Assembly: GCA_027624915.1 (NCBI GenBank)
Contig: JAQBTR010000002.1
Location: forward strand, 30,802-94,801
Origin: a bacterium
Lineage (GTDB): Bacteria > Patescibacteriota > Minisyncoccia > Ryanbacterales > GWA2-47-10b
Length of the DNA stretch: 64,000 bases
Reading direction: 5' to 3'
Below the pieces are notes generated by a model. The model was not told the DNA's origin and made no database searches. It saw only the letters and a program-made list of their open reading frames with translations. Numbering within the stretch: position 1 is the first letter of the stretch; the number at the start of each line of letters is the position of its first letter. Positions 11,360-59,798 of this stretch are shown one piece after another. The position numbers were made by a program, and so were the translations under genes.

Positions 11360-11390
11360 CATAAAAGTATCTTATTGTTTATAATGATAG

Positions 11391-11466: not shown

Positions 11467-11565
11467 GTTTGAAAAACAATTTCAAGTGAGAGGGATGAGA
11501 ACAGAGTGCTGTTAGCACTCTGCGGGGTTTGTGATAGGCAAACCGAATCCCTCTGCTGGCTCCAA
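11467..11565 (+). repeat. tRNA-downstream structured element ending in a 22-nt copy of the tRNA-Thr 3' end (cgaatccctctgctggctccaa)
   Basis: hairpin agagtgc-tgtta-gcactct, then a hairpin with loop tgatagg, then an exact duplicate of the tRNA 3' end; homologous to the element at 32838-32918. Confidence 0.55.
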
Positions 11566-11606
11566 ATAATAATACGCGGTTTTGTGTCGCGTATTATTAT
11601 TTTTGT
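11566..11606 (+). terminator. rho-independent terminator
   Basis: aataataatacgcg-gttttgtgt-cgcgtattattatt followed by a T-run. Confidence 0.65.
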
Positions 11607-21819: not shown

Positions 21820-21823
21820 ACGC

Positions 21824-21844
21824 GCGAGTGGCGGGGTGGAAATC
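21824..21844 (+). repeat. partial duplicate of the 5' part of tRNA-Tyr
   Basis: gcgagtggcggggtggaaatc matches the tRNA-Tyr 5' region gcgagtggcggagtggacaatc (20/22). Confidence 0.5.
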
Positions 21845-21868
21845 AGGATATAAAGATATTATATACAT

Positions 21869-32544: not shown

Positions 32545-32660
32545 GGAGGAGTGGCTGAGTGGGTCACAGGTCTGGGAGAGCTGTGACGGGAAATATAGCG
32601 AGCTTGTCGAGCGTATAGTATTTCCTCGGGTCGCGTGATGGGCGCGACGACTAGCGCACA
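32545..32660 (+). ncRNA. candidate structured RNA element 5' of tRNA-Ser (copy 2 of the family); begins with an 18-nt duplicate of the tRNA-Ser 5' end
   Basis: ggaggagtggctgagtgg is identical to the tRNA-Ser start; then hairpin gtcacag...ctgtgac, core acgggaaatatag...tatttcc, hairpin gggtcgcg-tgatggg-cgcgac. Confidence 0.4.
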
Positions 32661-32701
32661 AAGTACGTAATGCTTTTCCGGAACAATTTAGATATACATA
32701 T

Positions 32702-32830: not shown

Positions 32831-32837
32831 TGAGATA

Positions 32838-32918
32838 GGGAAGGGATTCGAACCGGAATGCTAAACGCATTCCGCGGGTTGTCTGATAAGAGGCAACCGA
32901 ATCCCACCTTCTCCGCCA
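32838..32918 (+). repeat. tRNA-downstream structured element (copy 2 of the family seen at 11467-11565) ending in a tRNA 3'-end-like ...ccgaatcccaccttctccgcca
   Basis: hairpin ggaatgc-taaac-gcattcc, then gcgggttgtc-tgataag-aggcaacc, then gaatccc + acceptor-like 3' strand + CCA; parallel architecture to 11503-11565. Confidence 0.5.
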
Positions 32919-33062
32919 AAAAACGAAATCGGATTTTAGAGCCGAAATTGGGTCGACGCTTCGCGCCGACCCAGATTTGCGTTCAGAAACCCTTTTCGAA
33001 AAATTGCGGTGTGTATTGAACGAAGTTCGAATGTATTTTGAGTTGAAGTTTTAGAATAATTT

Positions 33063-50459: not shown

Positions 50460-50822
50460 ATGTCACAAGAACCAGTAATCTTAGATGCAAGAGGAAAGTC
50501 ATTAGGACGAGTTGCTAGCGAAGCGGCTGGTATTTTACGTGGTAAGACAAATGTAAACTTTGAGTTCCACACATTACCAGAAGAACGAGTTGTTATTACA
50601 AATGCCTCACGTATTCGTGTTACTGGTTCAAAAATGAAAGACGAGAAGCATGAGCGATATTCTGGTTATCCCGGTGGATTAAAAGAGATTCCGTATGAGA
50701 GATCTTTTAAAAAAGATCCTGCAAAATTTGTAGCCAACTCTGTTGCGGGCATGATTCCACGTAACCGATTAAAAAAAGAAATTCTTAAGCACCTAACTGT
50801 ATATGCCAACAACCAAGAGTAA
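50460..50822 (+). CDS. rplM: ribosomal protein uL13
   Basis: L13 family similarity. Confidence 0.9.
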   Translation: MSQEPVILDARGKSLGRVASEAAGILRGKTNVNFEFHTLPEERVVITNASRIRVTGSKMKDEKHERYSGYPGGLKEIPYERSFKKDPAKFVANSVAGMIPRNRLKKEILKHLTVYANNQE

Positions 50823-51303: not shown

Positions 51304-51334
51304 TTCAACGGCTCATTTTTGAGCCGTTGAAAAT
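51304..51334. repeat. palindromic repeated element, copy 1 (ttcaacggctca-ttttt-tgagccgttgaaaat), core of a roughly 75-nt repeat
   Basis: near-identical copy at 57712-57742; flanking similarity extends both sides. Confidence 0.7.
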
Positions 51335-55495: not shown

Positions 55496-56545
55496 ATGAA
55501 AGACTATTATGACGTGCTCGGCATAGCCCGAAACGCCTCAAAAGATGAAATAAAAAAGGCATATCGTAAGCTCGCTCATCAATTCCATCCCGATAAAAAG
55601 GGTGGGGACGAAGCTAAGTTTAAAGAAGTAAACGAGGCCTACCAAATTCTTTCAGATGATGGTAAGCGAGCACAGTATGATCAATTTGGACGAACAGGAC
55701 CTAGTGCGGGACCTGGTGGTTTTGATTTTGGAAACTTTCAAGGATTTGAAGATGTCGATATGGGTGATATCTTTGAGACATTTTTTGGTGGACGAGGAGG
55801 TCAGGGTGGCAGAAAACGTCAAAAACGAGGACGTGATATTTCTATAGATATTGAGATTCCTTTCCAAGAAGCTGTATTTGGTTCGGAGCGACGTGTTTTG
55901 ATACGAAAATTTGCTACATGTGATACGTGTTCGGGTACTGGTAAGGCGGATGGAGCAAAAGAAGTTGCCTGTGAGCAGTGTCGCGGAGCAGGAACTGTTA
56001 GGGATACAAAGCAATCATTTTTTGGAACATTTACACAAGTAGTAGAATGTTCGGCGTGTGGTGGCAGAGGTAACATTCCAGATAAAAAATGTAAGCATTG
56101 TAATGGGGATGAGGTAGCTGTTAAAAGTGAAGAAATCCATGTTATTATCCCGCAGGGTATTGAAAATGGAGAAGTGATTAGAATCGCTGGCCAAGGCGAA
56201 GCAACACGAGGAGGTGAAACGGGGGATCTGTATGCAAAGGTTCATGTTCTTGCGCATTCGGTATTTAAACGCCTAGGACACGACTTAACCATGAAGTTAG
56301 ATGTTCCACTTTCAGAAGCTCTTCTTGGCGGAGAAAGAGTAATAAATACACTTGAAAATCCACTCAAGGTAAAGATTCCTCAAGGCGTCTCCGATGGAGA
56401 AGTTCTCAAAGTACGAGGGAAAGGAATACCGCGAGAAGATGGTTCTCGCGGAGATTTGCTCATTTCGGTTATAATAAAGATGCCAAAGAAACTCTCATCG
56501 AATGTGAAGGCTCTCATTGAAGAACTTAAAAAAGAAGGGTACTAG
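55496..56545 (+). CDS. dnaJ: molecular chaperone DnaJ
   Basis: J-domain (HPD), G/F region, four CxxCxGxG zinc-finger repeats. Confidence 0.9.
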
Positions 56546-56590
56546 AGTGTTGGATTTGAAAGCCATTTCCTTTGCCTCTATACTAAATAT

Positions 56591-57106
56591 ATGGATTTCG
56601 ATTTAGCAGCAAATATTGCTCAAATAACTAGCGCCGTTGGTAACCCAGCGCTTGATATAGTTATCATTGTCTTTTTCTTGGCTGCCGGTTTTATTGCAGG
56701 ATCTTTTCAGGGGAGAAATAAGCTCATATCATTCGCACTCGCAAATTATATTACTCTTGCGCTTCAACCCATCATTATAGGACTTTTAAATGCTTACGGA
56801 CTTTTATTTACTCTTTATCGAGATCTAAGTATTTATTTGTTAATGCTTATTGTAGTCTATATGGTACTTGAGCGGACGATCTTTGAGCACGTTAGACTTA
56901 ATGTGTTGAGCTGGTGGAAATCATTTATAACAAGTTTTTCTGTAGTTGGATTTTTTGTCGCAGGCCTCTTGAATATCATGTCATTTCGGGGTATTATTGA
57001 GCTCTCACCAATTACCATTAGTTTGTTTGCGGGACCAACCGCATACTTATTTTGGGCATTGGTACCGCTTGCGGCATTTGCGTACATTGCACCCAAACAC
57101 TACTAA
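56591..57106 (+). CDS. hypothetical polytopic membrane protein
   Basis: 171-aa ORF with 5 predicted TM helices. Confidence 0.4.
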   Translation: MDFDLAANIAQITSAVGNPALDIVIIVFFLAAGFIAGSFQGRNKLISFALANYITLALQPIIIGLLNAYGLLFTLYRDLSIYLLMLIVVYMVLERTIFEHVRLNVLSWWKSFITSFSVVGFFVAGLLNIMSFRGIIELSPITISLFAGPTAYLFWALVPLAAFAYIAPKHY

Positions 57107-57126
57107 AATTTTATATCCGCCAACTT

Positions 57127-57160
57127 CGACGTTTTAGTCGGAGTCCCGACTAAAACGTCG
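57127..57160 (+). terminator. long perfect hairpin (15-bp stem), terminator-like
   Basis: cgacgttttagtcgg-agtc-ccgactaaaacgtcg. Confidence 0.5.
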
Positions 57161-57217
57161 GGATAGTCGGCAACGGTGTTTTCTATCCGCCCATTGCATA
57201 GACGTAGTGAACTTTGT

Positions 57218-57280
57218 CCGCCTGTAGCTCAGTCGGTGGAGGTGAGTCTTCTGGGAGAAGACGAACCACTTTTAAGGGGA
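57218..57280 (+). pseudogene. degenerate tRNA-Lys-like copy (first 22+ nt identical to tRNA-Lys, hairpin inserted between D-arm and anticodon loop)
   Basis: ccgcctgtagctcagtcggtggag + hairpin gtcttct-ggg-agaagac + ccacttttaagggga. Confidence 0.5.
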
Positions 57281-57321
57281 TTTGAAAATTTAATATAAAC
57301 TCGGATTATCGTTAGCAAAGT

Positions 57322-57394
57322 CCGCCTGTAGCTCAGTCGGTAGAGCAGCTCCCTTTTAAGGAGATGGTCGTAGGTTCGATTCCTACCAGGCGGA
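57322..57394 (+). tRNA. tRNA-Lys (anticodon TTT), CCA not encoded
   Basis: acceptor ccgcctg/caggcgg, D-arm gctcagtcggtagagc, anticodon loop cttttaa, T-loop ttcgatt. Confidence 0.8.
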
Positions 57395-57404
57395 CTTTGA
57401 ATGG

Positions 57405-57436
57405 GATAATCCGAGTTCGATTCCTACCAGGCGGAC
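57405..57436 (+). repeat. inverted repeat (gataatccgag, partner ctcggattatc at 57300-57310) followed by a 22-nt duplicate of the tRNA-Lys 3' end
   Basis: gttcgattcctaccaggcggac is identical to the tRNA-Lys T-arm/acceptor 3' region; 11-bp IR brackets the intact tRNA. Confidence 0.55.
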
Positions 57437-57454
57437 AAAATTCAGTACACTAAA

Positions 57455-57533
57455 ACTCAGTCGGTGGAGAATAGGAGACATAGCAGGTCTCCTATTCCAC
57501 TTTTAAGAAGCTAGCCGTAGGTTCAGGGCGGAC
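57455..57533 (+). pseudogene. second degenerate tRNA-Lys-like copy with inserted hairpin
   Basis: actcagtcggtggag + hairpin aataggagac-atagcag-gtctcctatt + ccacttttaagaag...ccgtaggttcagggcggac. Confidence 0.5.
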
Positions 57534-57711
57534 GGGGTGATATGGTCAAAAAAAGTGCTATTGTGGTTCTGAAGTACAAAAGGAGCTGAAATGGACATAG
57601 TATATGATATGCTTAGAATGATCGGTACGGTAGACTACCCTGGTAAAAAGTAATTAAATAGCAACAACTTTCAGAACCTCTTTTCTGGTGGTTAGAACTT
57701 TTATGTGAAAA

Positions 57712-57742
57712 TTCAACGGCTCATATATGAGCCGTTGAAAAT
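57712..57742. repeat. palindromic repeated element, copy 2 (ttcaacggctca-tatat-tgagccgttgaaaat)
   Basis: matches 51304-51334 except the loop; flanks also similar. Confidence 0.7.
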
Positions 57743-57752
57743 GAGCATGAGT

Positions 57753-57796
57753 AAAGCCCCGGGGCGCGAATGCCGCCGGGGCTTTGTGGTTTTGGG
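57753..57796. terminator. GC-rich hairpin terminator at the edge of the second GC-rich island
   Basis: aaagccccggggcgcgaatgccgccggggctttgtggtttt. Confidence 0.55.
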
Positions 57797-57815
57797 TCCG
57801 TAGGTTCACAGACCT

Positions 57816-57917
57816 CTAGAAGATGAAGAATGGAAGTACGATGGAGATCACGGAGAGTATGATGAGGCCAATGACAGCAGCCGTCATCTCTTCTCGCCCC
57901 TCTCGGTCTCTATTCAT
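57816..57917 (-). CDS. small hydrophobic peptide (33 aa), candidate
   Basis: MNRDREGREEMTAAVIGLIILSVISIVLPFFIF, one TM helix; lies in the GC-richer patch; below the ORF-track size cutoff. Confidence 0.3.
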   Translation of the reverse strand: MNRDREGREEMTAAVIGLIILSVISIVLPFFIF

Positions 57918-57932
57918 TACTTCTCCTTGTCG

Positions 57933-58046
57933 TCAGTGAAGACCGCTGATGCTACTCACGAACTTGAAAAGTCCGTAGCAGACGGTCGAAAAACAGATCG
58001 TGATCACCCACATCATTCTCCGCATTTCTTTCTCTTCTCTGCTCAT
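57933..58046 (-). CDS. small hydrophobic peptide (37 aa), candidate
   Basis: MSREEKEMRRMMWVITICFSTVCYGLFKFVSSISGLH, one TM helix; tandem with the previous one. Confidence 0.3.
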   Translation of the reverse strand: MSREEKEMRRMMWVITICFSTVCYGLFKFVSSISGLH

Positions 58047-58375
58047 GTGCACCTACCTCCGTTGTCGTTTCGAAGCACACAAGAAACCTCTCCACAGGAG
58101 ATCTTGATTTCGTAGACCTTCCTGTCGGCATGATTTACATGCCACGAAATGACGCTCGGAACTTCTCCCGGTAGCGCATCTCTAATTTCGTCTACCTTAG
58201 CAGAGTACGAAGACTCTCTATTCCAGATGAGCTCCTCGGCCCGTCGAAGTCGAGGTGCCGCCACCCAGTTGATCAGATTGTGGCACGCGACTCGGCTTGA
58301 ACGAACGTCGCCTAGATAGTCCAAAGCGAACCAAAGGCACATGAGAGCAACTGCAATGACTACAACCTTCTTCAT
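58043..58375 (-). CDS. small secreted protein (111 aa) encoded in a GC-richer patch
   Basis: start set at ATG 58375 with a GGAGGA RBS; signal peptide MKKVVVIAVALMCLWFAL; the 5' part of the longer track ORF is AT-rich and looks non-coding. Confidence 0.5.
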   Translation of the reverse strand: MKKVVVIAVALMCLWFALDYLGDVRSSRVACHNLINWVAAPRLRRAEELIWNRESSYSAKVDEIRDALPGEVPSVISWHVNHADRKVYEIKISCGEVSCVLRNDNGGRCT

Positions 58376-58676
58376 TCTTCCTCCAGTTGTGAACATGACT
58401 ACCATGGTCACGTGATTTGTACGGTTTGGGACTATTATACTACTTTTAAGGTATTTGTCAATCCTAAAACTAAGGTTGCTGTACAATATCATTTCCACTG
58501 CATTTCCCATTATTTTGGCTACATCCCAATAAAAATTTCTCTCCAATACCCAAGGCATTAAGTTCAAAATTTTTAGCTGTGACTCGCTCAAAATAATGAA
58601 AATTCACAAGGAAAGCATCTGGTACAACAAGCTCTGTACCTACCAAGCATTTTGAGCTTTTGTTAATCTCTACTTA

Positions 58677-59798
58677 ATGCGAAAAAATAACCTGCGAACT
58701 TGGGTAGAGGTAGACACTAAGGCCCTCGAAAAAAATTATCGTATCTTTCGGAGACTCACGGGTCGCAAAACAGCCTTGATGGCAGTTGCTAAGTCCAACG
58801 CGTATGGCCATTCTCTTCATGATTTTGCGCGAGTCATGCAAAAGTTTGGCGTGGATTGGATTGGGGCCGACTCTATAACAGAAGCTATAGCGCTACGCGA
58901 AGCAAAGATAAAGAAGCCGTTACTTGTGTTGGGCCATACCTTGCCTTTGAGATATAAAGAAGCTGCCGAAAATAATATCAGTGTTACTGTCTCCACACAC
59001 GAAGCGTTAGATGCAATCGTAAAGAAAACATTTTCTAAACCACTAAAGATCCACCTCAAAATAGACACGGGTATGTCGAGACAGGGGTTTTTTGTAGAAG
59101 ACTTGCCAGAAGTATTTGCAGAGCTCTCTCACAAGAAAGACAAAATAAAATTTGAAGGCATCTATACGCATTTTGCAGCTGCCAAAAACCCATCCTTTCC
59201 TTTTGATACACACAAACAGCTTGAGGTTTTTGACCGTGCCCTTAAGGCGGCCGAATTTGCTGGATTTAAAAATCTGATACGACATGCGGCCGCCACATCC
59301 GGCCTCATCGTGTTTCCAGAATCGAAGTTTGATATGGCACGTGTGGGGATTGGTATGTATGGTCTGTGGCCATCACGCGAAGTCGAAGCTGCTTTTTCTG
59401 ACCGAATAAAATTACAACCAGCTCTTACTTGGAAGGCTATTATTGGCGAGACCAAGACTCTCACAAAAGGAAGTGGCGTTGGGTACGACTTCACCGAAAA
59501 AGTTCAAAATGATATGCGCGTAGCCATTATTCCTATTGGGTATTGGCATGGATACCCACGAAAACTTTCAAGTATAGGCAGGGTAATAATAAAAGGTGGA
59601 GTAGCTCGCGTTGTTGGGCGTGTTTCAATGGACATGATTGTTGTCGATATTAGTGGTGTACCAAGCACTAAGGTGGGGGACGAGGTGATATTACTTGGAA
59701 AGGGCTTTTCGGCTGATGATTTTGCACTACTTTCTGATACAATAAACTATGAAGCGGTAACACAAATTAATCCTTTGATCCACCGCTTCTATAATTGA
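58677..59798 (+). CDS. alr: alanine racemase (PLP-dependent)
   Basis: PLP-lysine motif VAKSNAYGHS and alanine racemase N- and C-domain similarity. Confidence 0.85.
   Translation: MRKNNLRTWVEVDTKALEKNYRIFRRLTGRKTALMAVAKSNAYGHSLHDFARVMQKFGVDWIGADSITEAIALREAKIKKPLLVLGHTLPLRYKEAAENNISVTVSTHEALDAIVKKTFSKPLKIHLKIDTGMSRQGFFVEDLPEVFAELSHKKDKIKFEGIYTHFAAAKNPSFPFDTHKQLEVFDRALKAAEFAGFKNLIRHAAATSGLIVFPESKFDMARVGIGMYGLWPSREVEAAFSDRIKLQPALTWKAIIGETKTLTKGSGVGYDFTEKVQNDMRVAIIPIGYWHGYPRKLSSIGRVIIKGGVARVVGRVSMDMIVVDISGVPSTKVGDEVILLGKGFSADDFALLSDTINYEAVTQINPLIHRFYN

What the first reader, a model, noticed from the sequence alone, without database searches (positions are those of the whole stretch)
57218..57533. 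tRNA-Lys locus rearranged into one intact gene bracketed by an 11-bp inverted repeat plus two degenerate copies with hairpin insertions
Within 320 bp there are four tRNA-Lys-derived pieces. First is a degenerate copy whose first 22+ nt equal the tRNA 5' end, with a 7-bp hairpin inserted between D-arm and anticodon loop. Second is the intact tRNA-Lys(TTT), flanked by a perfect inverted repeat ctcggattatc / gataatccgag. Third is a 22-nt exact duplicate of the T-arm and acceptor 3' end. Fourth is another degenerate copy with a different inserted hairpin (aataggagac...gtctcctatt) at the same position. Together with the partial tRNA-Tyr 5' duplicate at 21824-21844, every tRNA locus in this window carries partial self-duplications. 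This points to a recurrent process targeting tRNA genes: integration and excision, a tRNA-derived repeat, or an intron-like insertion.
Basis: seen in the sequence. Interest (0 to 1): 0.6.

Follow-up and report, generated by a model that had tools for sequence, protein, structure and literature searches.

The report
Scars of tRNA-gene-invading nuclease cassettes
The broken tRNA-Lys copies around one intact gene are real and look like eroded footprints of small selfish elements (a tiny GIY-YIG nuclease gene plus hairpins) that insert into tRNA genes of Patescibacteria while rebuilding a working copy; this element family does not seem to have been described.

Summary
One intact tRNA-Lys(UUU) gene (57322-57395) sits among partial copies: a 5' copy with a hairpin (57216-57281), an exact 22-nt 3' copy (57415-57436), a hairpin-bearing copy lacking its 5' end (57456-57533), and two smaller 5' remnants further upstream. 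The pieces are nested: the 5' copy and the 22-nt 3' copy have complementary outer flanks, as if an older gene had been split by the present one. Four of the six tRNAs in the window carry such ghosts, not all six.

Related genomes explain it. In 116 Patescibacteria tRNA-Lys loci, 5' ghosts lie only upstream and 3' ghosts only downstream. In eight loci an 80-90-aa GIY-YIG nuclease gene sits between a hairpin-bearing 5' ghost and the intact tRNA. Filled and empty sites exist in related genomes. All 16 distinct family members examined abut a tRNA gene (Lys, Ala, Phe, Leu, Arg, Ile), and hairpin type tracks nuclease clade.

The window has no nuclease gene, so it holds decayed scars. A syntenic relative has an empty site and another shares the downstream ghost. 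The homing mechanism and the hairpin function are inferred, not shown. These are not introns, odd tRNAs or integrase att sites. I judge it a new variant of free-standing homing-endonuclease biology.

The parts
57116..57121 (+). Oldest 5' remnant: TCCGCC, the start of the tRNA-Lys acceptor strand plus one leader base, directly upstream of the hairpin at 57127-57160.
   Evidence: Read from the sequence and repeat D5. The equivalent position in syntenic L001 and L110 holds a longer ghost followed by a hairpin. Syntenic L103 has none.
57127..57160 (+). Perfect 15-bp hairpin made of two inverted CCGAC-N6-GTCGG units. The unit belongs to the hairpin type found next to clade-B GIY-YIG genes.
   Evidence: Inverted repeat I3. 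CCGACTAAAACGTCGG is identical to hairpin 2 of L123, which lies between a tRNA-Phe ghost and a GIY-YIG gene.
57186..57192 (+). Second short 5' remnant (TCCGCCC).
   Evidence: Repeat D5 and the sequence. Weak on its own.
57204..57224 (+). Outer left arm: the leader plus 5' acceptor strand of the older, split tRNA-Lys gene. It pairs with 57428-57448.
   Evidence: Inverted repeat I2, 21 nt, 90% complementary. It forms the outermost helix of the minimum-free-energy fold (z = -7.7).
57216..57281 (+). Copy 1, a 5' ghost. It holds tRNA positions -2 to 24 (one mismatch), then a hairpin (stem 57246-57251 / 57257-57262, closed by GTGG/CCAC) in place of the 5' strand of the anticodon stem, then the anticodon loop CTTTTAAG and GGGAT.
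   Evidence: L043, L036, L026, L009 and L107 have the same architecture. In L043 and L036 a GIY-YIG ORF starts 2-6 nt after the ghost.
57282..57309 (+). Promoter-like site (TTGAAA, 16 nt, GATTAT) between the ghost and the intact gene.
   Evidence: Consensus scan, 9 of 12 matches. The number of sites in the region is not above chance, so this is tentative.
57298..57310 (+). Inner left arm (AACTCGGATTATC), a perfect complement of 57405-57417.
   Evidence: Inverted repeat I1. The fold of 57298-57417 gives -60.1 kcal/mol, z = -8.5.
57322..57395 (+). Intact tRNA-Lys(UUU), the functional gene. No CCA is encoded.
   Evidence: ARAGORN and Rfam tRNA at 72.4 bits.
57405..57417 (+). Inner right arm (GATAATCCGAGTT). 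Its last bases abut the T-loop break point of the 3' ghost.
57415..57436 (+). Copy 3, a 3' ghost: an exact copy of the T loop, the T-stem 3' strand, the acceptor 3' strand and one trailer base. It is absent from the syntenic relative L126.
   Evidence: Repeat D4, 22 of 22 identical. BLAST E = 2e-7. The alignment with L126 shows a gap here.
57428..57448 (+). Outer right arm: the 3' acceptor strand of copy 3 plus its trailer. It pairs with 57204-57224.
   Evidence: Inverted repeat I2 and the fold.
57456..57533 (+). Copy 4, a downstream ghost without a 5' acceptor strand. It holds the D loop CTCAGTCGGTGGAG, an 11-bp hairpin (57469-57479 / 57487-57497), CCACTTTTAAG, the variable region, a T arm with an internal deletion, and GGGCGGAC.
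   Evidence: The hairpin folds at -20.7 kcal/mol, z = -3.9. Syntenic L126 has an orthologous ghost with identical flanks and an unrelated but still pairing hairpin.

Best explanation
The region holds one working tRNA-Lys gene surrounded by 'ghosts', which are displaced pieces of earlier copies of the same gene. The ghosts were left by repeated insertions of a kind of selfish cassette that is common in Patescibacteria.

What an intact cassette looks like. In related genomes it consists of one or two hairpin-forming sequences and a gene for an 80-90-aa GIY-YIG nuclease that has a catalytic domain only (UPF0213/YhbQ-like). The cassette sits inside a tRNA gene and is accompanied by a fresh copy of the interrupted part, so a complete tRNA gene is always present. 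The displaced part remains as a hairpin-bearing ghost. This is a 5' ghost upstream when the cassette lies on the 5' side, and a 3' ghost downstream when it lies on the 3' side. At least one element (L124/L125) has both ghosts and carries a whole tRNA gene inside.

What happened in this window (inferred). The nuclease genes have since been deleted and only the ghosts, hairpins and spacers remain. An older tRNA-Lys gene (copy 1 plus copy 3, with its own pairing flanks) appears to be split by the segment that carries today's gene. Copy 4 and the two short upstream remnants come from earlier events.

Mechanism (inferred by analogy with free-standing homing endonucleases). The nuclease cuts an intact tRNA gene at a conserved motif in the D stem, anticodon region or T loop. 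Repair then copies the cassette from a donor, using the tRNA sequence itself as the homology.

Shown versus inferred. The anatomy, polarity, filled and empty sites, nuclease association and hairpin-clade correlation are shown. The cleavage, the homing route, the loss of the gene in this lineage and the function of the hairpins are inferred. The hairpins may be a nuclease recognition structure, a terminator or attenuator, or both.
For: 1. The pieces are real and nested.

2. The same ghost architecture recurs in independent assemblies: tRNA positions 1 to about 24, then a hairpin, then CTTTTAAG. It is seen in L043, L036, L026, L009 and L107.

3. An HMM search of 116 tRNA-Lys loci finds a GIY-YIG ORF (PF01541, E 1e-13 to 1e-16) in eight loci. 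In each it lies on the same strand immediately 5' of tRNA-Lys. Its stop codon is usually the TAG inside the tRNA. A ghost piece lies upstream in all eight, against about six of the other 108 loci.

4. Filled and empty sites exist in related genomes.
- L041 against L102 (80% identical) and L028: a 281-bp insertion with tRNA positions 1-12 present on both sides.
- L061 against L057 and L070: a 313-bp insertion with positions 1-36 duplicated.
- Within the window's own synteny group (dnaJ, 171-aa gene, tRNA-Lys): L103 is empty, L110 and L001 carry one ghost plus hairpin, and the window carries three.

5. Polarity is strict: 21 upstream 5' parts, 23 downstream 3' parts, 0 upstream 3' parts and 1 downstream 5' part among 165 tRNAs.

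6. The nuclease family is large (at least 2672 proteins). Counting each gene once, all 16 distinct members examined abut a tRNA gene: Lys, Ala, Phe, Leu, Arg or Ile. Fifteen of them have a 5' ghost plus hairpin upstream (for L061 the exact match is only an 11-nt piece of the anticodon and variable region). The sixteenth, L122, has a hairpin-bearing 3' ghost downstream.

7. Hairpin type tracks nuclease clade. The clade-B double hairpin is inserted at the same D-stem site (TAGC^TCAG) in Lys, Ala, Phe and Ile ghosts.

8. L124/L125 show a two-ended element: 5' ghost, hairpins, nuclease gene, whole tRNA-Phe, an extra ORF, the same hairpins, 3' ghost, terminator. This is the nested layout seen in the window.

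9. The window hairpin at 57146-57161 equals hairpin 2 of L123.

10. There is precedent. T4 SegB is a free-standing GIY-YIG homing endonuclease whose site contains the conserved tRNA T-psi-C motif (PMC2330249). Fungal mitochondrial genes are followed by degenerate endonuclease ORFs and a displaced C-terminal duplicate (PMC6279837).
Against: - No GIY-YIG gene or convincing fragment lies next to tRNA-Lys in the window. The HMM gives E > 1, and tblastn finds only a 16-aa match near tRNA-Ser at E = 0.03.
- The hairpins of copies 1 and 4 do not match any nuclease-linked hairpin type in sequence. They match only in position.
- No relative was found in which this exact ghost type still has a nuclease gene. 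The metagenome scan returned one locus, which also lacks it.
- The proteins have no DNA-binding domain. The rebuilt tRNA gene is identical to an uninvaded one, so self-immunity is unexplained.
- Cleavage and homing are untested.
- The 13-bp perfect leader/trailer pairing around the intact gene is not predicted by the simple cassette model.
- Copy 4 seems to be retained between lineages. That points to a present-day function rather than a neutral scar.
Confidence: 0.67

Rival explanations
1. The downstream repeats are att-site duplications left by tyrosine-integrase elements (phage or integrative island) that integrated into the 3' part of tRNA-Lys and were later lost.
For: - Copy 3 is an exact 22-nt repeat of the tRNA 3' end, the classic attL/attR signature.
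- The tRNA-Lys 3' flank is an insertion hot spot in relatives. L087 has an 815-bp insert flanked by GGGCGGACA, and L106 has about 420 bp extra.
Against: - No integrase was found among the ORFs tested around the Lys, Ser and Thr loci.
- Only 19 bp separate the tRNA from the repeat.
- Integrases displace 3' parts, whereas half of all ghosts are 5' parts lying upstream.
- The ghosts carry hairpin insertions and are linked to GIY-YIG genes, not to integrases.
Confidence: 0.1
2. Plain tandem duplication of the tRNA gene followed by random deletions, with no mobile element involved. Only internal deletions that keep the promoter and the terminator survive.
For: - It explains the polarity: 5' pieces upstream and 3' pieces downstream.
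- It explains the absence of any coding remnant in the window.
- At tRNA-Thr(tgt) the terminator follows the ghost rather than the gene.
Against: - It does not explain a hairpin at the same position in independent ghosts.
- It does not explain conserved hairpin families shared by ghosts of different tRNA types and phyla, such as L041 and L122.
- It does not explain a nuclease gene lying exactly between ghost and gene in 16 of 16 cases.
- It does not explain clean filled and empty sites whose insert is foreign DNA.
Confidence: 0.08
3. The ghosts and flanking complements are functional RNA or DNA structure, not scars. Extended leader-trailer helices would guide pre-tRNA processing, and the hairpin plus UUUU of copies 1 and 4 would act as terminators or attenuators for the upstream gene and for tRNA-Lys.
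For: - Predicted folding is very strong (z = -7.7 for the whole region and -8.5 for the inner unit).
- Copy 4 has an orthologue in syntenic L126 with identical flanks and a different but still pairing hairpin.
- GTGG/CCAC closes both window hairpins, and each is followed by TTTT.
- A related hairpin in downstream ghosts covaries strongly: 96.5% paired, 8 of 9 pairs with compensatory changes, 0 of 500 shuffles as high.
- Short leader-trailer pairing is also present at the empty site L103.
Against: - The terminator scan does not call either hairpin, because each has only four T.
- Copy 1's hairpin folds no better than shuffled sequence (z = -0.7).
- Most relatives express tRNA-Lys without any of these features.
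- Function does not explain origin. This reading is compatible with later exaptation of scars.
Confidence: 0.12
4. The degenerate copies are unusual tRNA genes, either intron-containing or of another isotype, or they are an assembly artefact.
For: - Patescibacteria do hide tRNA genes behind group I introns (PMC13011429).
- Repeats of this kind can confuse short-read assemblers.
Against: - ARAGORN finds no further tRNA, and Rfam at E <= 10 finds no tRNA or intron match on copies 1, 3 or 4.
- Copy 1 lacks a 3' half and copy 4 lacks a 5' acceptor strand.
- Equivalent arrangements occur in dozens of independent assemblies made with different assemblers.
Confidence: 0.03

Closest known systems
Free-standing GIY-YIG homing endonucleases of T4-like phages, especially SegB (PMC2330249)
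   Same: - The nuclease gene has a GIY-YIG catalytic domain and sits among or next to tRNA genes, outside any intron.
- The SegB recognition site includes the conserved tRNA T-psi-C motif.
- The gene is present in some relatives and absent in others, and spreads together with flanking tRNA DNA.
   Different: - Seg proteins are about 200 aa or more and have a DNA-binding part. These proteins are 80-90 aa with the catalytic domain only.
- The closest solved structures are UPF0213 proteins 1zg2 and 1ywl.
- The elements are chromosomal in Patescibacteria, not in phages.
- They sit inside the tRNA gene with a partial duplication that rebuilds it.
- They come with clade-specific hairpins.
- No activity has been tested.
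Homing-endonuclease ORFs in fungal mitochondrial genes that leave a displaced terminal duplicate (for example cob and atp6 in Endoconidiophora resinifera, PMC6279837)
   Same: The layout is the same: an intact gene, then a (degenerate) endonuclease ORF, then a partial terminal copy of the same gene. The invaded gene stays functional because the interrupted end is supplied anew.
   Different: - The targets there are protein-coding genes in organelles.
- The duplicates are C-terminal.
- No hairpin modules are involved.
- Here the target is a tRNA gene, both polarities occur, and most ghosts are 5' parts.
tRNA-targeting integrative elements (tyrosine integrases; attL/attR repeats of the tRNA 3' part). 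This comparison rests on general knowledge.
   Same: Insertion into a tRNA gene restores the gene and leaves a direct repeat of part of it. tRNA genes act as hot spots, with serial insertions.
   Different: - The enzyme class is different, and no integrase is present.
- The inserts are 0.3 kb rather than several kb.
- 5' parts are duplicated as often as 3' parts.
- The ghosts are interrupted by hairpins.
REP or REPIN palindromes with their RAYT transposase. This is an analogy from general knowledge, not tested here.
   Same: Short palindromic units co-occur and co-vary with one small nuclease-type gene. Copies of the unit are found at more than one place in a genome: L124 has three copies of the double hairpin.
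   Different: - RAYTs are HUH Y1 enzymes, not GIY-YIG enzymes.
- REPs are not tied to tRNA genes.
- Genome-wide copy numbers of these hairpins were not measured.
Group I introns in Patescibacteria tRNA genes (PMC13011429)
   Same: The phylum and the target (tRNA genes) are the same, and both cause standard tools to miss or mis-read tRNA loci.
   Different: - Those are self-splicing introns of 200 nt or more at position 35/36, and most lack endonuclease genes.
- Here there is no intron signature, no splicing is needed, and an uninterrupted gene is present.

Membership tests
Canonical bacterial tRNA gene (the intact copy) | Cloverleaf with a 7-bp acceptor stem, D, anticodon and T arms, and anticodon UUU. 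| tested here: met
   ARAGORN and Rfam RF00005 at 72.4 bits, full length.
Canonical or intron-containing tRNA (copies 1 and 4) | Detectable as a tRNA, with or without an intron, by covariance model or ARAGORN. | tested here: not met
   No hit at E <= 10 on 57216-57281 or 57456-57533. ARAGORN finds nothing. There is no Intron_gpI hit in the window.
Free-standing GIY-YIG homing-endonuclease cassette | An ORF with a GIY-YIG catalytic domain at the locus. | tested here: not met
   Not met in the window: the HMM gives E > 1, and the only tblastn hit is a 16-aa match near tRNA-Ser at E = 0.03. Met in relatives: PF01541 at E 1e-13 to 1e-16 and in 16 distinct genes. The window therefore holds remnants, not a member.
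Free-standing GIY-YIG homing-endonuclease cassette | Presence/absence polymorphism at the same site in related genomes. | tested here: met
   Filled against empty: L041 against L102 and L028; L061 against L057 and L070; L043 and L091 against L027. In the window's synteny group, L103 is empty.
Free-standing GIY-YIG homing-endonuclease cassette | Site-specific cleavage of the allele that lacks the gene, followed by copying of the gene into it. | not testable with these tools
   This needs biochemistry or crosses.
Free-standing GIY-YIG homing-endonuclease cassette (Seg or I-TevI type) | A separate DNA-binding domain joined to the catalytic domain. | tested here: not met
   The proteins are 80-90 aa. 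The Pfam hit covers residues 2 to about 73. The best solved relatives are single-domain UPF0213 proteins.
Integrase-mediated tRNA integration (attL/attR) | A direct repeat of the tRNA 3' part downstream of the gene. | tested here: met
   22-nt exact repeat at 57415-57436.
Integrase-mediated tRNA integration (attL/attR) | An integrase gene and element DNA between the repeats. | tested here: not met
   Only 19 bp lie between the tRNA and the repeat. There is no integrase domain in the neighbouring ORFs.
Intrinsic terminator (copies 1 and 4 hairpins) | A G+C-rich stem followed by a T run. | tested here: inconclusive
   The stems exist and are followed by CCACTTTT. The consensus scan needs at least 5 T and does not call them.

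The most novel reading that the evidence does not exclude
tRNA genes of Patescibacteria, and of some other bacteria (L122), are invaded by an undescribed class of selfish element. It is a minimal, catalytic-domain-only GIY-YIG nuclease (UPF0213/SLX1-like) that works together with its own palindromic hairpin module. The nuclease would recognise DNA structure rather than a long sequence, either the hairpin or the cloverleaf-like fold of a tRNA gene. Insertion happens at the D stem, anticodon region or T loop of many tRNA types, and the gene is rebuilt by duplicating or carrying the interrupted part. The hairpins would be the cis-acting partner of the nuclease, in a REP/RAYT-like relationship. 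Hairpin-riddled ghosts then persist and are sometimes reused, for example as terminators. The window would be a fossil record of at least four such events at one gene.
Probability: 0.35. Interest if true: 0.8.

Novelty: new variant of a known kind. Interest (0 to 1): 0.6.

Why it matters
1. Annotation. tRNA loci in candidate-phyla-radiation genomes are littered with hairpin-bearing pseudo-fragments. These can mislead tRNA finders, att-site predictors and assemblers. Recognising the pattern explains them.

2. Protein function. The small 'GIY-YIG nuclease family protein' genes annotated in thousands of genomes have no assigned role. Their strict placement against tRNA genes, with a ghost and a clade-specific hairpin, gives a concrete and testable function. 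It also offers a possible example of a minimal nuclease that finds its target through DNA structure.

3. Genome evolution. Genomes under strong reduction still tolerate, and keep the scars of, selfish elements at essential single-copy genes. The rebuild-the-gene trick known from integrases and from mitochondrial endonuclease ORFs has also arisen for the 5' side of tRNA genes.

Tried and rejected
- Group I intron or other known RNA family. Rfam on the whole window at gathering scores, and on the Lys and Ser loci and eight related loci at permissive E-values, found only tRNAs.
- Hidden tRNA or tmRNA on either strand. ARAGORN found nothing. Manual reading of the minus strand of the Thr and Ser modules gave no cloverleaf.
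- Integrase or phage genes near the ghosts. Pfam on 18 neighbouring ORFs gave only housekeeping genes.
- A GIY-YIG remnant next to tRNA-Lys. The HMM with --max and tblastn with short words found nothing there. A hit at 50683-50736 lies inside a ribosomal-protein operon and is chance. The small ORFs after copy 4 (57542-57590 and 57592-57654) show no similarity.
- Finding the window's ghost type still attached to a nuclease gene. The metagenome scan for CTCAGTCGGTGGAG..CCACTTTTAAG returned one syntenic locus, which also lacks the gene.
- The 24-nt genome scan found no second locus with both a G-variant ghost and a real gene. The window's own genome is not among the 116 matching loci.
- Terminator call for the ghost hairpins. 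Not made by the scan.
- RNA-guide ideas, in which the ghost acts as a spacer and the hairpin as a scaffold, as in omega-RNA or bridge RNA. Set aside because the protein is 80-90 aa and there is no evidence.
- Literature. Four of the five full-text searches looked for a description of this element in bacteria and found none, but the library is incomplete.
Full report
**1. The observation**

The window comes from an uncultured bacterium. A 171-aa neighbour protein matches 100% a protein of a 'MAG: bacterium' contig of 106 kb. All related loci found later are Patescibacteria.

ARAGORN finds six tRNAs in the window, including tRNA-Lys(ttt) at 57322-57395. Rfam confirms that gene at 72.4 bits and finds no other RNA family in 56000-59000, even at E <= 10.

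- a 26-nt 5' copy at 57216-57241 (96% identical);
- an exact 22-nt 3' copy at 57415-57436;
- a degenerate copy spread over 57444-57524;
- hairpins at 57241-57267 and 57469-57497.

BLAST of the tRNA against the window gives E = 2e-7 and 3e-6 for the two exact pieces, so this is not chance.

- The inverted repeat around the intact gene is 13 bp perfect, within 31-nt arms that prolong the acceptor stem.
- A second pair of arms (57204-57224 / 57428-57448, 90%) joins the leader of copy 1 to the trailer of copy 3.

The predicted fold of 57195-57545 is therefore a helix within a helix (-142.5 kcal/mol, z = -7.7). Copy 1 plus copy 3 look like an older tRNA-Lys gene with its own pairing flanks, split by the segment that carries the present gene.

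Upstream there are also two short acceptor-strand remnants (57116-57121 and 57186-57192) and a perfect 15-bp hairpin (57127-57160).

**2. Other tRNAs in the window**

Partial self-copies also flank three other tRNAs:
- tRNA-Thr(tgt): 21 nt exact at 11544-11564;
- tRNA-Ser: 18 nt exact at 32545-32562, plus a diverged 3' end finishing at 32927;
- tRNA-Tyr, weakly: 21824-21840.

tRNA-Thr(ggt) and tRNA-Trp have none. The claim that 'every tRNA locus' is affected is therefore too strong. Four of six are.

The Thr and Ser 3' copies share a common layout: an antisense T-arm piece, an 8-bp hairpin with compensatory differences, and a T loop interrupted by a short insert (GGGTT..TGATA..GGCAA..CCGAATCCC).

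**3. Relatives**

A scan of one genome per species for the first 24 nt of this tRNA returned 116 loci, all with an intact tRNA-Lys.

Exact partial copies of at least 11 nt within 500 bp of the gene are about 17 times denser than further away: 62 per 105 kb against 19 per 566 kb.

The copies are strictly polar. Counting all 165 tRNAs in the fetched DNA gives 21 5' parts upstream, 23 3' parts downstream, none of the 3' parts upstream and one 5' part downstream.

Several 5' ghosts have exactly the anatomy of window copies 1 and 4: tRNA positions 1 to about 24, a hairpin in place of the 5' strand of the anticodon stem, then CTTTTAAG. Examples are L043, L036, L026, L009 and L107.

**4. The agent**

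In L036, L043, L113 and L007 the ghost is followed within a few bases by an ORF of 86-90 codons that runs up to the intact tRNA. In most cases it ends at the TAG formed by tRNA positions 8-10. All four ORFs match the GIY-YIG catalytic domain (PF01541, E 1e-13 to 1e-16).

A profile search of all six-frame ORFs finds the gene in eight of the 116 loci. It is always in this position and always has a ghost piece upstream. It finds none in the window.

A search of the large protein collection with the profile returns at least 2672 proteins of about 80-95 aa, mostly annotated 'GIY-YIG nuclease family protein' from Patescibacteria.

I looked up ten of these proteins. Two proved to be the same genes as L091 and L061. 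Counting each gene once gives 16 distinct genes, and every one abuts a tRNA gene: Lys, Ala(tgc), Phe, Arg(acg), Ile or Leu.
- Fifteen lie just 5' of the tRNA and have a hairpin-bearing 5' ghost of that same tRNA upstream. For L061 the exact-match evidence is only an 11-nt piece of the anticodon and variable region.
- In L122, from a 5.1-Mb non-CPR genome, the order is tRNA-Leu, nuclease gene, then a 3' ghost (positions 37-86) with a hairpin in its T loop.

The closest solved structures are single-domain UPF0213 proteins, then the I-TevI catalytic domain and SLX1.

**5. Evidence for insertion**

Related genomes give filled and empty sites.
- L102 and L028 run from the upstream gene straight into tRNA-Lys. 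L041 (80% identical to L102) has 281 extra bp, consisting of hairpin, CTCAG and the nuclease gene, with tRNA positions 1-12 on both sides.
- L061 has 313 extra bp with positions 1-36 duplicated, relative to L057 and L070.

In each case the ghost keeps the original upstream flank, so it is the displaced resident 5' end.

In the window's own synteny group (dnaJ, 171-aa gene, tRNA-Lys), L103 has no ghost: the gene stops 15 nt before the tRNA. L110 and L001 have one short ghost plus hairpin. The window has three ghosts.

L001's ghost (CTCCGCCCGTAGC followed by CCCGAC..GTCGGG) is of the type that accompanies clade-B nuclease genes elsewhere.

**6. Hairpins belong to the element**

Nuclease clades, defined by pairwise identity, go with hairpin types.
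- Clade B (57-71% identical across Lys, Ala and Phe loci) goes with a double hairpin, CCCCGAC..GTCGGGG followed by nCCGAC..GTCGGn. It is inserted at TAGC^TCAG in the D stem of Lys, Ala, Phe and Ile ghosts.
- Clade C (L041 and L122) goes with CCyGCCCGACTGAA(C)GTCGTTCrGGCGGG, in a D stem in one case and a T loop in the other.
- Clade A goes with TCCGCC-N3-4-GGCGGA placed just before CTTTTAAG.

Hairpins can sit inside hairpins, as in L119.

In L124 and L125 the same double hairpin bounds both ends of an element. The order is: tRNA-Phe 5' ghost, hairpins, nuclease gene, complete tRNA-Phe, a 117-aa ORF, hairpins, tRNA-Phe 3' ghost broken in the T loop, terminator. This matches the nested layout of the window's Lys locus.

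The window's hairpin unit CCGACTAAAACGTCGG (57146-57161) is identical to hairpin 2 of L123.

**7. What the window holds**

No nuclease gene or credible fragment lies next to tRNA-Lys. I therefore read the locus as several decayed cassettes:
- two old upstream remnants with a clade-B-type hairpin;
- copy 1 (5' ghost) and copy 3 (3' ghost) as the two ends of a split older gene;
- copy 4 as a still older downstream ghost.

L026 shows what loss of the gene looks like. It has the same ghost and hairpin as L043, but only 48 nt of spacer. That spacer keeps an ATG and the last codons that read into the tRNA.

A metagenome scan for the copy-4 signature found one locus, L126. It is syntenic (alanine racemase 58% identical just downstream) and has a ghost at the same place. 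The flanks CTCAGTCGGTGGAG and CCACTTTTAAG are identical, while the hairpin differs entirely in sequence but still pairs. L126 has no copy 3.

Copy 4 therefore predates the split of these lineages and looks retained, whereas copy 3 is younger. Because the search pattern fixed the flanks, this conservation is partly ascertained.

**8. Mechanism: what is shown and what is inferred**

Shown: the anatomy, the polarity, the nuclease association, the filled and empty sites, and the hairpin-clade correlation.

Inferred:
- The nuclease cuts intact tRNA genes at a conserved motif, and repair copies the cassette from a donor, with the tRNA sequence itself serving as homology. This rests on analogy with SegB, whose site contains the T-psi-C motif (PMC2330249).
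- The gene stays whole because the interrupted part is supplied again. The same is seen around endonuclease ORFs in fungal mitochondrial genes (PMC6279837).

Unexplained:
- how the rebuilt gene escapes cutting;
- how an 80-90-aa protein finds its site;
- how the duplication comes to start at tRNA position 1 in different tRNA types;
- what the hairpins do.

The hairpins may be recognition structures for an SLX1-like nuclease, or terminators or attenuators. In tRNA-Lys ghosts they stand just before the T run of the anticodon loop, but the scan does not call them.

**9. Rivals**

- Integrase att sites explain the 22-nt repeat alone. They do not explain the 5' ghosts, the hairpins or the lack of an integrase.
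- Duplication and decay explain the polarity. They do not explain the shared hairpins, the nuclease genes or the filled sites.
- A purely functional RNA reading is supported by strong folds and by the retained copy 4. It does not explain origin and is compatible with exaptation.
- Introns, odd tRNAs and misassembly are not supported.

**10. Novelty**

Five full-text searches were run. The first four looked for this arrangement in bacteria and found no description of it. The fifth looked for the fungal mitochondrial analogue. The nearest papers concern group I introns in Patescibacteria tRNA genes (PMC13011429), insertions in their rRNA genes (PMC11270868), and phage SegB. The library is incomplete, so prior description cannot be excluded.

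I file the phenomenon as a new variant of free-standing homing-endonuclease biology. The window's locus is a set of remnants of it, not a member.

Noticed in passing
window 11480-11564, with terminator 11568-11605: tRNA-Thr(tgt) is followed by a structured 79-nt spacer: GAGGGAT, an 8-bp hairpin, and GGGGTT..tgtgataggcaaa..CCGAATCCC. After it comes an exact 21-nt copy of the tRNA's own 3' end including CCA. Only then comes the intrinsic terminator. In the predicted fold the tRNA 5' strand pairs with the second 3' copy.
   Followed up: partly
window 32545-32660 and 32837-32927: tRNA-Ser has an exact 18-nt 5' ghost followed by three hairpins; the first contains the same TCTGGGAGA as the Lys copy 1 hairpin. 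Beyond its terminator it has a diverged 3' ghost with a T-loop insert, and this ghost ends in CCA although the real gene encodes no CCA. The Ser and Thr 3' ghosts appear to share most of their sequence by eye over about 75 nt.
   Followed up: partly
window 32958-33040, minus strand: A possible fossil of a GIY-YIG gene lies next to the Ser 3' ghost. KYIRTSFNTHRNFSKRVSERKSGSARS resembles the (Y)IG..T.NL..RL.EH.SG motif of L041 (tblastn 62% over 16 aa, E = 0.03). It is interrupted by stops and is weak evidence.
   Followed up: partly
window 21822-21845: A weak 5' ghost of tRNA-Tyr (GCGAGTGGCGGGGTGGAAATC) lies 45 nt upstream of the gene, followed by an A+T-rich palindrome.
   Followed up: no
L007, L010, L016, L017, L023, L026, L029, L031, L034, L054, L075, L084, L086, L098, L105, L111, L117 (50-250 nt downstream of tRNA-Lys): These loci carry a 130-220-nt 'module' that reads as a full-length tRNA-Lys ghost riddled with hairpins. 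The order is: GTCCGCCCG-AGC, a 9-bp hairpin with a CTGC loop, the T-stem 5' strand, AATCGAA, a structured insert, GATT, the T-stem 3' strand, and the acceptor 3' strand. The 9-bp hairpin covaries strongly: 96.5% paired, 8 of 9 pairs with compensatory changes, 0 of 500 shuffles as high. There is no Rfam family. Some copies are tandem (L010, L111) or have their own terminators (L017).
   Followed up: partly
L017, L107, L026 (downstream of tRNA-Lys): Tandem units of about 90 nt begin with GTCCGAG. Each contains GGGGTCGCGAG (a GNRA-type loop) and ends with GTGACGAC.
   Followed up: no
L036, L043, L113, L007, L041, L091, L119 (3' end of the GIY-YIG ORF): The nuclease ORF ends at the TAG formed by tRNA positions 8-10, giving C-termini such as ..NRP* or ..KGR*. 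RNase P cleavage of a co-transcript would therefore remove the stop codon. The consequence for expression is unknown.
   Followed up: no
L087 compared with L013; L106 compared with L053, L064 and L088: Other insertions occur at the tRNA-Lys 3' end. One is 815 bp, flanked by GGGCGGACA, with a minus-strand ORF. Another is about 420 bp with a minus-strand ORF. The 3' flank is thus a general insertion hot spot.
   Followed up: partly
window 11375-11390, 21859-21868, 32691-32701: The -10-like boxes (TATAAT, TATATA, TATACA) lie only 3-5 nt before the mature 5' ends of tRNA-Thr(tgt), tRNA-Tyr and tRNA-Ser. This suggests transcription starts at or very near position 1 (read).
   Followed up: no
window 51304-51331 and 57712-57739: Two copies of a 28-nt palindrome, ttcaacggctcat(t/a)t(t/a)tgagccgttgaa, lie in intergenic DNA. 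One follows the rpsI terminator and the other lies 180 nt after copy 4.
   Followed up: no
L103, and window 57317-57399: Even at the empty site the leader and trailer of tRNA-Lys pair (cccaact / agttggg), prolonging the acceptor stem. This seems to be a native property of these genes.
   Followed up: no
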